DNA of 64,000 nucleotides from Promethearchaeia archaeon (GTDB taxonomy: Archaea; Asgardarchaeota; Lokiarchaeia; Sigyniarchaeales; SOKP01): assembly GCA_029856145.1 (NCBI GenBank), contig JAHQWK010000022.1, positions 61,422-125,421 on the forward strand. Reading direction: 5' to 3'. Shown here piece after piece: positions 35,907-64,000 of this stretch (position 1 is its first letter; the number at the start of each line of letters is the position of its first letter). The notes below the pieces were generated by a model, which saw only the letters and a program-made list of their open reading frames with translations, did no database searches and was not told where the DNA came from. A program made the translations under genes and the position numbers.

Positions 35907-37070
35907 TTATATTCTTTTTTGTGTCATATAATGTTTACGTAAAGGTTCGCAGTGAGGGAATATCGTATCTATTGCCCGTGAATTATTCGACCAGATCGCA
36001 GTGCCTTCATAATAATCTACTCCGTGTAGGTTAGCAGTAAGCTGTCCGATGTTGTTGAGGGATGAAAAGATCCCTTTTCCAAAATAACCTTTCTTTACCA
36101 TTGCGGTATCTACATTACATCGTGTAATCGGATTTCCTGTCCAAGCTTCAAATAAATCCGGAAGCCCCAATAAAATACCAACTAACTCACCAGTAGTTTT
36201 ATTGAAAGCCATTGGAGCAAAGGGTTCTGTGTTCTCAAGATCGCATGTCTCCCATGTTTCCACAAACTGTGGTACATCTGAGTATGTCTTCGGATTGAAA
36301 TCCTCTTTTATTTTGTAGAAAGATTTCGGAATCCTTTCAAATACTTTGAAAAATTCAAATACTCGATTTCTTCCTGAAGCATCAGGTAAAATTTCATGAA
36401 AGGAATTACTTGCTAAATTTCGAATATCATCAACATAATCATATAATTCTTTCATTGTTACATATCTAAACTCGATGTTTTTGTCAATTTTCTTCCCTTT
36501 ATCCCACGTTTTTTGAGTTACATATACACATGTATATTCTGATTCTTTTTGATATCCTAAAGAATCTAAATATTCAAGGATTCGCGAATTTGGATCGTTA
36601 TATGACACACCATAAAGCATCTGTTCATTGAATCCCATGAATTGTATACCAATTCCTCCTAAATTTTTGGGAAAATTGATATTTCCACGAATTTTACGTA
36701 CATTATTTACTTTTACAAACTTCTCACATCGTTTAATCAATTCCTTGCATACTTCTAAGCTATTCGCATGAAGCCATCCAAAAGTACCACATTTACGGCT
36801 ATAGCTTGTATAATAAGGATCAATCTGTGCAATAACAAACCCTTCTACTTCTGTTCCTATATATCCAATACAAACTTGGATTTTATAGTCTTCATCTAAA
36901 AACTTTTTTTCCAAATAAAAGAGAAGTTCAGAAATTACATATGATTTGACAACTTCATTCGGAACAAATAAAATATCTTCTAAAGCTTTTTTAATTTCTT
37001 TTAGGTCAGTAGTAATGACTATTTTTATGGGTTTTCCTACGTCAATTAATTTCTCTAATATTTGTACCAT
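35907..37070 (-). CDS. Double-GNAT-fold (YghO-like) protein
   Basis: GTFGWL...IRGNINFP...YNDP and C-terminal AMVKKGYFGKGIFS...IWSNN acyl-CoA-binding-like motifs. Confidence 0.65.
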   Translation of the reverse strand: MVQILEKLIDVGKPIKIVITTDLKEIKKALEDILFVPNEVVKSYVISELLFYLEKKFLDEDYKIQVCIGYIGTEVEGFVIAQIDPYYTSYSRKCGTFGWLHANSLEVCKELIKRCEKFVKVNNVRKIRGNINFPKNLGGIGIQFMGFNEQMLYGVSYNDPNSRILEYLDSLGYQKESEYTCVYVTQKTWDKGKKIDKNIEFRYVTMKELYDYVDDIRNLASNSFHEILPDASGRNRVFEFFKVFERIPKSFYKIKEDFNPKTYSDVPQFVETWETCDLENTEPFAPMAFNKTTGELVGILLGLPDLFEAWTGNPITRCNVDTAMVKKGYFGKGIFSSLNNIGQLTANLHGVDYYEGTAIWSNNSRAIDTIFPHCEPLRKHYMTQKRI

Positions 37071-37112
37071 TTCTATATCATTTTAAGATGTTTTCATTAT
37101 CCTACTTTTATT

Positions 37113-37164
37113 TGTATTTAAAGAAAAAAAAGGGAAGAATGCAGTTTTTCCTTTATATATACTT
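37113..37164. promoter_or_regulatory. Back-to-back promoters with T-tract in the BRE position
   Basis: Minus: CCCTTTTTTTTC-TTTAAATA (37134-37115); plus: GCAGTTTTTCC-TTTATATA (37141-37159); located between divergent genes, so not terminators. Confidence 0.65.
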
Positions 37165-37210
37165 GATTTTCATATCTATCATATCTTATTTAAAAAAAAG
37201 AGATAAAAGG

Positions 37211-38377
37211 ATGATAGAACATATTTGTAAGAAATGTATCTTACCACATGGATTTCTAGGCGTATCTCTAGGCTCTGAAGGCTTATGCGAATTTTGTACT
37301 GATCCTGACCATAAAAATGTCAATTGGTCTCGAACTGCAATAGACCAAGAAAGAAGGAATCAAGCTCTTACTGATTGGAAATTAGTAGTGGAGAAAATGC
37401 AAATTGAACATGAGAAGTGTTCATATGATTGTATTTTAGGATATTCCGGAGGTAAAGATTCCACTGCTCTATTAGATTATCTAGTGAATGATCTTGGTTT
37501 GACTCCTTTAGCAGTAACTACTGATACAGGATTTATGACCGAGATTGCCAAGGATAATATGAAGGATACTTTAGCACAAATTAATGTGGATCATGTGTTA
37601 ATCGAAGATTGTATTTCTACTTTTACAAAACTCTATAAATGGCACTTTTTTAACCATAATTCTAAAGAGACATTCCTAGCACGAGGTATATGTGATTATT
37701 GCTCAGATTTAATACATAGTATTGTCGTAAAAGAAGCTATAAAACAGGAGATACCCTATGTACTATTTGGTTACTCACCAGCTCAGATTTTCAGGTATTT
37801 CTATGAAATGCCACAGGAGGAGGTCATTGAAGCGTGGAAGCCGGAGCTTATATTTGATGAGCTTATATTTGATGAGAGTGATCATAAGTGGTATTTAAAT
37901 GATGGTGAGATTAATAGTGGCATCCTCCCACGAGTTCTACTTCCATATCATGTAATACCATATCGAGAACAAGATATCATCAAACTTGTAGAATCTAAGA
38001 ATTATATAAAAAAAGGACATGCAGACCCGCTATTAACTAATTGCAATGTGGTTCATGCTGCAACTTTCTATGATTTCAATAGATACGGAGGAATTCTGTA
38101 TGCCTATCAGTATGCTGAATTAGTACGTCAAAATCCAGAGTCCCGTAAGAAGTGGCTAAGAACATTAAAAATGTCTGCTCCACTAATTCTTGAAAACAAT
38201 TTTAAGCGAAAAGAAGTCAATTTATTCTTTAGCCAAATTGGAGTTACTCAAGAAGAAATGCAAGAGCATATACAGGAGCAATTAGAACAAGATCCTAATA
38301 AAAAGCGAATCTTAAATATAATTGCAATGTTTCAAAAAAAGCGAAAGACACGACAAGTGGCCGTACTTACCCAATAA
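37211..38377 (+). CDS. PP-loop ATPase, N-acetyl-sugar amidotransferase (WbpG-like) / adenine-nucleotide alpha hydrolase family
   Basis: Start reassigned to ATG 37211 (MIEHICKKCILP); CEFC; YDCILGYSGGKDST; ICDYC; LTNC. Confidence 0.8.
   Translation: MIEHICKKCILPHGFLGVSLGSEGLCEFCTDPDHKNVNWSRTAIDQERRNQALTDWKLVVEKMQIEHEKCSYDCILGYSGGKDSTALLDYLVNDLGLTPLAVTTDTGFMTEIAKDNMKDTLAQINVDHVLIEDCISTFTKLYKWHFFNHNSKETFLARGICDYCSDLIHSIVVKEAIKQEIPYVLFGYSPAQIFRYFYEMPQEEVIEAWKPELIFDELIFDESDHKWYLNDGEINSGILPRVLLPYHVIPYREQDIIKLVESKNYIKKGHADPLLTNCNVVHAATFYDFNRYGGILYAYQYAELVRQNPESRKKWLRTLKMSAPLILENNFKRKEVNLFFSQIGVTQEEMQEHIQEQLEQDPNKKRILNIIAMFQKKRKTRQVAVLTQ
37844..37876 (+). repeat. Perfect in-frame 15-bp tandem duplication inside the PP-loop gene
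   Basis: GAGCTTATATTTGAT x2 + GAG, encoding ELIFD-ELIFD-E. Confidence 0.9.
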
Positions 38378-38417
38378 ATTTTATTTTTTTTCTTTTTCTT
38401 ATATATATATAATAGAT

Positions 38418-63315: not shown

Positions 63316-63481
63316 TTATGATAACTCCCACAAGGGACTCAAGTATACTTTTATTAAAAAAACTTGTTAATTCAGATTTATATATTTATCAAAATATAGA
63401 CTTAAATAATGGTTGTTGCTATATATTACAATAATAAATGAAAAATCTAAAGGATACAAAAAAATAAGAATAAATACATAA

Positions 63482-63676
63482 ATGATCGCCATAATCAAAA
63501 AAATTATGATGGGTCTCATTGTAATATCGATATCTTGTGGACTACTTTGCCTTCCATTCACGGGTGTATTATATGGAGGACGTCCTTTAAGAGGTATCCT
63601 TATAACAGGAGGTATATCTTTTGTCATAGCAGCAATGTTAATTATAATATATATAATTATAGGAAATATAAAGTAG
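63482..63676 (+). CDS. Possible small two-TM membrane protein (strand and start uncertain)
   Basis: Two hydrophobic helices joined by YGGRP; overlapped by a 110-aa antisense ORF. Confidence 0.4.
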   Translation: MIAIIKKIMMGLIVISISCGLLCLPFTGVLYGGRPLRGILITGGISFVIAAMLIIIYIIIGNIK

Positions 63677-63790
63677 AACAATAGGGAATAAATGTCCATT
63701 CATAATTAGCCCAAGAAAAATGATTCCCATAAAAAATAGTAGTTATTGGATGATTATCCCCGCAAGGGATTCGGATCGATATCTATCGAA

Positions 63791-63808
63791 TTCTTTTTTG
63801 TTTAAATA
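63791..63808 (+). promoter_or_regulatory. T-tract/TATA promoter (leaderless spacing)
   Basis: TTCTTTTTTG-TTTAAATA, 22 nt before ATG 63830. Confidence 0.6.
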
Positions 63809-63829
63809 TGCACAAAATATTGATAGTTC

Positions 63830-64000
63830 ATGGAAATAAATTCAATAAATACGGAACCAACGCCCCATCTTACTCATGAACTAGTAAAATGTGGGATTTG
63901 CAGAAATGAAATTAAACGAGGAGCATCGATATATCAGGAAGGGCTTACATTCGGAGTAGTGTGTGAAAAATGCTACAAGAATAATTCACAAGAAGATCTT
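63830..64000 (+). CDS. Zinc-finger protein, 5' part only (runs off window end)
   Basis: MEINSINTEPTPHLTHELVKCGICRNEIKRGASIYQEGLTFGVVCEKCYKNNSQEDL; CxxC...CxxC. Confidence 0.75.
   Translation, partial: MEINSINTEPTPHLTHELVKCGICRNEIKRGASIYQEGLTFGVVCEKCYKNNSQEDL

What the first reader, a model, noticed from the sequence alone, without database searches (positions are those of the whole stretch)
35907..64000. Non-canonical T-tract promoters across a 28-kb block plus a rewired TFB: candidate alternative-TFB (sigma-like) regulon
Seen: TATA boxes upstream of genes in this block are preceded by a pyrimidine tract where the BRE should be. Copies: CCCT8C-TTTAAATA (37134-37115, -), GCAGT5CC-TTTATATA (37141, +), GT6A-TTTAAATA (40410-40395, -), GGAT5CC-TTTATATA (40426, +), GCAT6C-TTTATATA (48315-48298, -), CCCT8C-TTTAAATT (48718, +), AT5C-TTTATATA (53052, +), GAT6G-TTTATATA (59717-59701, -), GTAT7C-TTTATATG (61437, +), CT6G-TTTAAATA (63793, +), and a weaker copy at 56714-56698. 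Five lie in divergent spacers, so they cannot be terminators. Two sit exactly 22 nt from an ATG, which is leaderless spacing. Housekeeping promoters in the window have purine-rich BREs (CCGAAG-TTTTATATA for ESCRT-III, ATAAAAAT-TTTATATA for the CoA ligase), and so does the TFB paralogue (GGAAAAAG-TTTATAAA). Established: archaeal TFB reads a purine-rich BRE with the HTH of its second cyclin repeat. Inference: housekeeping TFB transcribes the paralogue, which then redirects RNA polymerase to T-tract promoters, giving a developmental or stress switch in an Asgard archaeon.
Basis: partly seen in the sequence, partly recalled or inferred. Interest (0 to 1): 0.92.

Follow-up and report, generated by a model that had tools for sequence, protein, structure and literature searches.

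The report
Asgard promoter class with private TFB
About 35 DNA-recombination and cell-envelope genes of a large family of Loki-type Asgard archaea share their own promoter type, with a run of T's where archaea normally have a purine-rich element, and the same gene cluster encodes a rewired transcription factor B that probably reads it, like an alternative sigma factor in bacteria.

Summary
The motif is real and behaves like a promoter class. Nine of the ten full copies stand before transcription units. One (40429) faces no gene, and the weak copy (56714) is unsupported. The block is a vertically inherited Lokiarchaeia cluster (RadA, RadB, RPA and FEN1 paralogues, Hel308, Hef, VirB4/HerA-like pseudo-ATPase with membrane partners). 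Across eight genera the motif marks first genes of operons (TM248 16/17, PT999 16/16), follows genes through rearrangements, and avoids inner genes and tRNAs. Two features not used for selection support true promoters: a purine 6 nt after the TATA box (92-95%) and a start purine at +22 (85-87%). The paralogue has a full TFB fold; its three BRE-reading positions are replaced by near-invariant residues in 121 sequences, while seven ordinary TFBs of the genome keep the canonical helix. Its own promoter lacks the T-tract (0/21). The scan noted this before on other DNA (e1-5425572, e1-5498848). I found no paper describing it.

The parts
37115..37131 (-). T-tract promoter of the 387-aa gene; predicted start site 37093
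   Evidence: score 21.0; 7/11 orthologues
37145..37159 (+). T-tract promoter of the N-acetyl-sugar amidotransferase-like gene; predicted start site 37181
   Evidence: 23.3; 7/10 orthologues
40395..40409 (-). T-tract promoter of the 635-aa gene; predicted start site 40373
   Evidence: 19.8; 13/13 orthologues
40429..40443 (+). T-tract plus TATA facing the 3' end of the convergent pseudo-ATPase operon; no ORF, no +6 or +22 purine: antisense site or relic
   Evidence: 14.3; similar sites in about 8 of 13 genus members, none in other genera
48298..48312 (-). T-tract promoter of the five-gene HhH / membrane / pseudo-ATPase operon; predicted start site 48276
   Evidence: 22.2; 12/14 orthologues
48430..48556 (+). 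Conserved structured RNA-like element between two regulon promoters; no Rfam family
   Evidence: 10 of 25 predicted pairs with two-sided changes
48721..48737 (+). T-tract promoter of the Zn-finger / Hel308 operon; predicted start site 48759
   Evidence: 18.1; 8/10 orthologues
53053..53066 (+). T-tract promoter of the 78-aa gene; predicted start site 53088
   Evidence: 17.5; 11/12 orthologues
59701..59715 (-). T-tract promoter of the PT999 / orf210 / Hef / DUF1922 operon
   Evidence: 19.4; 16/16 orthologues
61440..61455 (+). Leaderless T-tract promoter of the HExxH membrane protein / RadB operon; ATG is base +22
   Evidence: 16/17 orthologues, all 16 with 21 nt to the ATG
63794..63808 (+). Leaderless T-tract promoter of the Zn-finger gene cut by the contig end (family c22)
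   Evidence: 9/9 orthologues with 21 nt to the ATG
30698..30712 (-). Weaker leaderless T-tract promoter outside the block, before a SnoaL-like gene
   Evidence: 13.1; ATG at +22; conservation not tested
59808..61055 (-). TFB paralogue (TFBp): Zn ribbon, altered reader, two cyclin repeats, rewired HTH (residues 266-285), C-terminal extension of about 120 aa
61098..61113 (-). TFBp's own promoter: purine-rich BRE plus TATA, no T-tract
   Evidence: 0/21 orthologues with T-tract
61130..61230 (.). Two conserved imperfect palindromes upstream of the TFBp promoter (61130-61148 and 61217-61230): candidate operators
35907..37070 (-). 387-aa conserved protein, no Pfam or NCBIfam family (GNAT-like by reading only, not tested)
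37211..38377 (+). PP-loop N-acetyl-sugar amidotransferase-like protein
   Evidence: TIGR03573 E=2.5e-33, below cut-off
38418..40325 (-). 635-aa protein with C-terminal DUF998 membrane domain
40451..48270 (-). Operon: HhH membrane protein (46219-48270), TM244, TM286, 1267-aa VirB4/HerA-like protein without Walker A (40819-44622), orf123
   Evidence: canonical Walker A in 0 of 21 homologues
48813..51917 (+). Operon: small Zn-finger protein, Hel308/Ski2-like helicase (49169-51649), 87-aa protein
52791..53340 (+). Two small paralogous genes (71 and 78 aa); only the second has the T-tract promoter
53358..59647 (-). Operon: PT999 (prenyltransferase-type toroid, likely surface protein), orf210, Hef-like helicase, DUF1922 protein
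61477..63315 (+). Operon: HExxH membrane protein (putative metalloprotease), 114-aa membrane protein, RadB-like ATPase
   Evidence: (HExxH 28/28; Walker A 26/26)
63830..64000 (+). Zn-finger gene (c22 family), cut by the contig end; in relatives followed by RadA, FEN1 and RPA paralogues, roadblock/GTPase pair and cyclin-fold c31

Best explanation
The motif is a separate core-promoter class: T5-6(Y)(C/A/G) + TTTA(A/T)ATA + five bases + purine, with the start purine 22 nt after the box (shown by conservation; start sites not mapped). It defines a regulon of about 35 genes for homologous recombination and envelope remodelling, most likely a DNA-exchange (competence- or mating-like) programme (inferred from gene content). 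An ordinary TFB, gated by a regulator at the upstream palindromes, transcribes the paralogue TFBp (inferred). TFBp joins TBP on the TATA box, its rewired helix (M-S-T-x-Q-x-Q) reads the A-tract on the strand opposite the T-tract, its first cyclin repeat probably reads the +6 purine, and its zinc ribbon recruits RNA polymerase (inferred). The missing purine BRE keeps ordinary TFBs off these promoters, so the whole set switches with one factor, as with an alternative sigma factor.
For: Motif before first genes of operons, absent before inner genes and flanks: 138 hits in 432 kb of cluster against 7 in 251 kb of flank (the matrix was trained on cluster sites). It holds in 7 further genera not used for training, with shuffled gene order. 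Inner genes gain it when they become first (orf210, Ski2, orf87). It stays with genes scattered over a single-contig genome (G005). Unselected +6 purine 92% and 95%, +22 purine 85% and 87%, against 28-69% and 46-50% at intragenic matches. Leaderless T-class promoters have the ATG at 21 nt, 46 against 12 at 22-23 nt; purine-class 17 against 33. TFBp fold matches 1D3U, TM 0.79 by target. Positions matching P. woesei Q268, V280, R283 are V/I, S, Q in 120, 121 and 120 of 121 sequences; all seven ordinary TFBs keep TEVT(L/V)R. TFBp lies in or beside the cluster in most loci and lacks the T-tract itself (0/21). In the MK-D1 lineage both helix (ASTVYS) and motif (T-tract, GC, T, TATA) differ. Three genomes lacking the tested cluster genes show motif counts at control level (G022, G068, G077).
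Against: No binding or transcription data. Genomes at least 90% complete without a detected TFBp still average 12.3 motif hits against 5.3 for the control pattern (with TFBp 18.0 against 5.6). G097 has TM248 and PT999 joined without TFBp and with intact T-tract promoters; it also lacks RadB, orf210 and c31, so part of the cluster is missing or lost. Gln282 varies to His or Asn in two genera with no clear change of motif. The cluster encodes other candidate DNA binders, among them the cyclin-fold protein c31. Helix and motif co-vary over only two lineages. The B-reader region is altered and poorly modelled.
Confidence: 0.65

Rival explanations
1. The regulon is real but the T-tract is read by another protein (an activator, c31, or one of the seven ordinary TFBs). 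TFBp acts only as a co-activator in trans, like Sulfolobales TFB3 with Orc1-2.
For: Draft genomes with the motif but no detected TFBp. c31 has a TFIIB-like cyclin box (Z 7.7, rmsd 3.4, 97 aligned). Activators at weak BREs are known (PMC5817253). TFB3 works without an HTH (PMC6101591, PMC6101594).
Against: The tract sits in the BRE slot touching the TATA box, where TFB must bind; the Sulfolobus ANTTTC box lies upstream of the BRE, at -44 to -39 (PMC5817253). Ordinary TFBs all keep the purine-reading helix. c31 has no zinc ribbon, is itself under a T-tract promoter, and was not found in the same TFBp-less genomes. TFBp keeps a conserved HTH, unlike TFB3.
Confidence: 0.2
2. The T-tract is not read base by base. 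It acts as an anti-BRE or a shape element that excludes ordinary TFBs or histones, and TFBp is a BRE-independent factor whose specificity comes from the TATA box and the +6 base.
For: Loss of the canonical Q, V and R contacts. The tract extends further in many copies. Gln282 varies without motif change.
Against: Positions -6 to -3 are 92-100% T in nearly every genus and the -1 base is mostly C, more fixed than exclusion alone needs. Ser279, Gln284 and Cys271 are invariant.
Confidence: 0.1
3. The block is an integrated mobile element (conjugative element or provirus) with its own promoters and TFB.
For: Extra copies and fragments of TFBp and cluster genes in several genomes; VirB4/HerA-like protein; slightly higher GC (31.9% against 29.9%).
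Against: TFBp found in 98 of 126 family genomes (about 90 full length). Its tree repeats the supported RpoA1 groupings. No PHROG hit for ten block proteins, no tRNA in the window, no terminal repeats, and the ATPase lacks Walker A. An ancient domesticated origin is not excluded.
Confidence: 0.04
4. The T-tracts are terminators or a by-product of AT-rich DNA.
For: Genome is 70% AT; two copies follow co-oriented genes.
Against: Shuffle and genome-wide controls, divergent spacers, fixed register, +6 and +22 signatures.
Confidence: 0.01

Closest known systems
Sulfolobales TFB3 / Orc1-2 DNA-damage regulon (ups, ced; PMC6101594, PMC6101591, PMC6061795, PMC5817253)
   Same: A TFB paralogue linked to DNA-transfer and recombination genes, including a VirB4/HerA-like protein; a shared promoter element; weak canonical BRE.
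   Different: TFB3 is truncated, lacks the HTH and B-finger and works with TFB1; its ANTTTC element lies upstream of the BRE and is bound by Orc1-2. TFBp is full length with a conserved, altered HTH; the element replaces the BRE; the ATPase lacks Walker A; paralogue and targets are clustered.
Sulfolobus TFB2 cell-cycle regulon (bioRxiv 10.64898/2026.09.06.749720)
   Same: A full TFB paralogue drives a gene set.
   Different: TFB2 promoters have a similar BRE with different spacing, and tfb2 feeds back on itself. Here the BRE sequence is inverted in character (T against A) and TFBp's own promoter is not of the class.
Canonical archaeal TFB (P. woesei, PDB 1D3U / 1AIS)
   Same: Zinc ribbon and two cyclin repeats; TM 0.75-0.79 by target; KKE motif and one Arg of repeat 1 kept.
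   Different: 16-17% identity; below Pfam TFIIB detection; altered reader, GKxP replaced by NTTD, recognition helix replaced, C-terminal extension.
Multiple TFBs of haloarchaea (PMC7289017)
   Same: TFB families give some promoter specificity.
   Different: Described as a degree of specificity among TBP/TFB combinations; I found no report of a wholly different BRE with a matching rewired helix.
Bacterial alternative sigma factors, e.g. streptococcal ComX (own knowledge)
   Same: One initiation factor with its own core promoter switches on recombination, ssDNA-binding, helicase and membrane genes.
   Different: Unrelated protein fold; analogy only.

Membership tests
TFB/TFIIB family | N-terminal zinc ribbon | tested here: met
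   Four Cys, three invariant; PF08271 E=5e-4, below cut-off
TFB/TFIIB family | Two cyclin repeats in the TFB core arrangement | tested here: met
   pLDDT 80-94 over residues 100-300; best matches 1AIS and 1D3U
TFB/TFIIB family | Canonical B-reader | tested here: not met
   Replaced by YxRPY in 124 of 163 sequences; 1 with a canonical-like motif
TFB/TFIIB family | Canonical BRE-reading helix (Q...TEVTxRxR) | tested here: not met
   MSTxQxQ in 141 of 163; so a divergent paralogue, not a canonical TFB
TFB/TFIIB family | Binds TBP-DNA and recruits RNA polymerase | not testable with these tools
   Needs biochemistry
Sulfolobales TFB3 | Truncated, no HTH | tested here: not met
   411 aa with both repeats and HTH
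Sulfolobales TFB3 | ANTTTC element upstream of the BRE | tested here: not met
   Conserved columns are -7 to -1, in the BRE slot; columns -16 to -8 carry little information
Sulfolobales TFB3 | Induced by DNA damage | not testable with these tools
   No expression data
Ced DNA-import system | Active VirB4-like ATPase CedB | tested here: not met
   HerA/VirB4-like by features but no canonical Walker A in 21 homologues
Ced DNA-import system | CedA / CedA1 / CedA2 membrane proteins | not tested
   TM244 and TM286 have no Pfam or PHROG family; not compared with Ced sequences
Archaeal core promoter | TATA box about 23-30 nt before a pyrimidine-purine start | tested here: met
   +21 pyrimidine 66-79%, +22 purine 85-87%; leaderless ATG at +22; start sites inferred
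Archaeal core promoter | A-rich BRE next to TATA | tested here: not met
   No A or G at -6 to -2 in 129 training sites
Integrated mobile element | Integrase, att repeats, patchy non-vertical spread | tested here: not met
   far end of the cluster lies beyond the contig

The most novel reading that the evidence does not exclude
TFBp is a true archaeal counterpart of an alternative sigma factor, with its own upstream and downstream recognition elements and start-site spacing. It launches a dedicated DNA-exchange or mating programme (second RadA, RPA, FEN1, Hel308, Hef, membrane channel, surface remodelling, a small RNA and further cyclin-fold proteins) in Asgard archaea, an early form of TFIIB/Brf-like division of labour and of a programmed recombination stage.
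Probability: 0.3. Interest if true: 0.92.

Novelty: new variant of a known kind. Interest (0 to 1): 0.78.

Why it matters
Whether archaeal TFB paralogues act like sigma factors is a long-standing question; the papers read show no selectivity (T. kodakarensis), a similar BRE (TFB2) or no DNA-binding helix (TFB3). Here a sharply different BRE and a sharply different, conserved recognition helix occur together, which makes the question testable with four purified components. The motif also gives a list of co-regulated unknown genes in Asgard archaea, centred on duplicated recombination enzymes and a membrane machine, a candidate programme for DNA exchange in the prokaryotes closest to eukaryotes. 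A homologous cluster lies in genome G038, whose length equals that of cultured Promethearchaeum syntrophicum MK-D1 (identification from memory), so start-site mapping is feasible.

Tried and rejected
Genome-wide logos of all TATA cores were too noisy to define the housekeeping BRE; leaderless genes and tRNAs served as controls instead. Presence/absence across draft genomes was not decisive: TFBp's neighbours lie at contig ends in G008, G092 and G114, and kin are not independent (P=0.017 overstates). Fine covariation of helix and motif inside the family was not seen. A 17-nt MK-D1-type pattern had all 3 exact matches inside the cluster but was derived from them, and with one mismatch was at control level. 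The CoiA-like gene on contig C2 has no scoring T-tract promoter, so I do not count it in the regulon. Profile comparison missed c31's cyclin fold; the fold searches found it with middling scores. Rfam and tRNA scans were empty. The PT999 tree did not finish. TFBp-like proteins were not found at E<1e-25 outside the order in 250 phylum genomes (only 7 candidates scored per genome). The 1D3U paper was not held, so the roles of Q268, V280 and R283 rest on my own knowledge; only the numbering was checked. No TBP-TFBp complex was predicted, since DNA cannot be included and a pass would reflect likeness to solved pairs. Literature searches found no description of this cluster or motif.
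Full report
Setting. The window is the end of contig C22 of a 3.55-Mb, 30% GC genome. Homologues of its proteins are named Promethearchaeota or Lokiarchaeia.

Observation. All ten full copies are present. The block holds 11 matches against 1 in the left 36 kb, and its intergenic DNA holds 9 against a shuffled mean of 0.21. Among genes that need their own promoter, 6 of 11 in the block carry the motif against 70 of 2343 elsewhere. tRNAs, the seven ordinary TFB genes, and housekeeping RadA and FEN1 do not carry it. The weak copy at 56714 has no TATA octamer and is not conserved. The copy at 40429 points into a convergent operon and lacks the downstream features.

The block is a conserved cluster. 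Most loci fetched from the genus show the same genes in nearly the same order. The cluster continues past our contig end with a RadA paralogue, a FEN1 paralogue, an RPA paralogue, a roadblock-like/small-GTPase pair and small membrane and zinc-finger proteins. Some of these lie on contigs C2 and C23 of this genome, again behind T-tract promoters, beside an XPD-like helicase. Inside the window are a Hel308-like and a Hef-like helicase, a RadB-like ATPase, an HhH membrane protein, a 1267-aa VirB4/HerA-like protein without Walker A, an HExxH membrane protein and a sugar amidotransferase-like enzyme. The TFBp tree repeats the supported RpoA1 groupings, with local duplications, and TFBp was found in 98 of 126 genomes of the family. 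This is inherited chromosomal equipment, not a recent insertion.

The motif marks a regulon. It precedes the first gene of each operon (TM248 16/17, PT999 16/16, the 635-aa gene 13/13, RadA paralogue 11/12, c22 9/9). It is absent before inner genes (Hef 0/15, RadB 0/16, TM286 0/13), before the flanking dehydrogenase (0/6) and before TFBp (0/21). Inner genes gain it when rearrangement makes them first. Seven other genera, not used to train the matrix, show the same logo despite shuffled gene order. In the single-contig genome G005 the cluster is split over at least three places and the pieces keep the motif, which argues for a diffusible reader and against a local composition effect.

These behave as promoters. 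Two columns not used for selection are fixed: a purine six bases after the octamer (92% in the genus, 95% in other genera) and a purine at +22 after a pyrimidine (85% and 87%). Matches inside genes lack both. Leaderless members put the ATG at exactly +22, while purine-class promoters spread over +22 to +25 and show no +6 purine (36%). The class therefore has its own upstream element, downstream element and a tight start register.

The paralogue. TFBp folds as a complete TFB core but forms a long-branched clade apart from the seven ordinary TFBs (quick tree). Those seven all end in TEVT(L/V)R. In TFBp the positions matching P. woesei Q268, V280 and R283 (numbering; their BRE-reading role is my own knowledge of 1D3U) are V/I, S and Q, near-invariant in 121 sequences, with invariant Q284 and C271. 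Conservation of a new helix fits new specificity better than decay. An invariant K-x-R in repeat 1 is the natural reader of the +6 purine (inference). TFBp's promoter is purine-rich or mixed, never T-tract, and carries two conserved palindromes upstream, so it looks like the input of the switch. In the lineage of G038 (probably MK-D1) the cluster exists, the helix reads ASTVYS, and the promoters carry a shifted variant with GC before the box and the ATG at about +22.

What speaks against TFBp as reader. Nineteen fairly complete genomes without a detected TFBp still show twice the control count. Several are assembly gaps, but G097 has TFBp's usual neighbours joined, with intact promoters. It also lacks three other tested cluster genes, so the case is open. 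G022, G068 and G077, which lack the tested cluster genes, fall to control level. The cluster also encodes c31, whose C-terminal domain best matches TFIIB cyclin repeats with middling Z, and the genome has two TFB-like proteins without zinc ribbon under T-tract promoters. These are targets of the switch and could be co-factors or feedback inhibitors.

Comparison. The nearest known system is the Sulfolobales TFB3/Orc1-2 regulon of DNA exchange genes. TFB3 has no HTH and its element lies upstream of the BRE, so this is not a member; it works like one in logic only. TFB2 uses a similar BRE. No paper found describes this cluster. Other agents of this scan reported the same idea on other genomes; their notes are not independent evidence. 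I had formed the reading before seeing them.

Verdict. Real feature and real regulon (about 0.95). TFBp as direct reader about 0.65. A DNA-exchange role is plausible but rests on gene content. New variant of a known kind; interest 0.78.

Noticed in passing
window 48430-48556 (+): Unannotated structured RNA-like element of about 115 nt with a near-invariant core and covarying outer stem and 3' hairpin; 4 copies in this genome, 12 in relatives' loci; three orphan copies lie about 80 nt downstream of a T-tract promoter; no Rfam hit.
   Followed up: partly
window 61130-61230; G000 C3:189000-189250 (-) and C9:433780-434000 (+): The upstream element of TFBp (two palindromes plus TATA) has two orphan look-alikes in the genome that precede no TFB gene.
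   Followed up: partly
L047:6124-6729 (-); own copy L095:1707-2378 (-): Cluster protein c31 (200 aa, no Pfam) has a C-terminal cyclin box most like TFIIB repeats, heads an operon with an RPA paralogue and has a T-tract promoter.
   Followed up: partly
L079:7172-8605 (+) and G000 C2:81589-83115 (-): Two 90%-identical TFB-like proteins of about 480 aa without zinc ribbon, related to TFBp, with leaderless T-tract promoters.
   Followed up: partly
window 40429-40443 (+): T-tract TATA facing the 3' end of the pseudo-ATPase operon, partly conserved in the genus; possible antisense promoter or roadblock.
   Followed up: partly
G000 C11:156683-157111, C7:11992-12375, C7:138054-140810: Fragments of TFBp: a C-terminal piece, a middle piece, and a zinc ribbon fused to a 918-aa protein.
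   Followed up: no
L078:9773-10783 (+): CoiA nuclease-like gene (PF06054, E=6e-13) among regulon genes on contig C2, without a scoring T-tract promoter.
   Followed up: partly
G000 C7:19248-57458 (+): A 12,736-aa ORF directly after a small gene with a T-tract promoter at C7:18911.
   Followed up: no
window 2093-4139: ESCRT-III (Snf7) gene divergent from a Vps4-like MIT-AAA gene, next to a Rab-like GTPase.
   Followed up: no
window 24469-26193 (+): Carbohydrate phosphorylase in two pieces (237 and 301 aa), probably a broken gene.
   Followed up: no
G000 C9:102498-102725 (-): A single TBP domain inside a 437-aa frame, besides two ordinary TBP genes.
   Followed up: no
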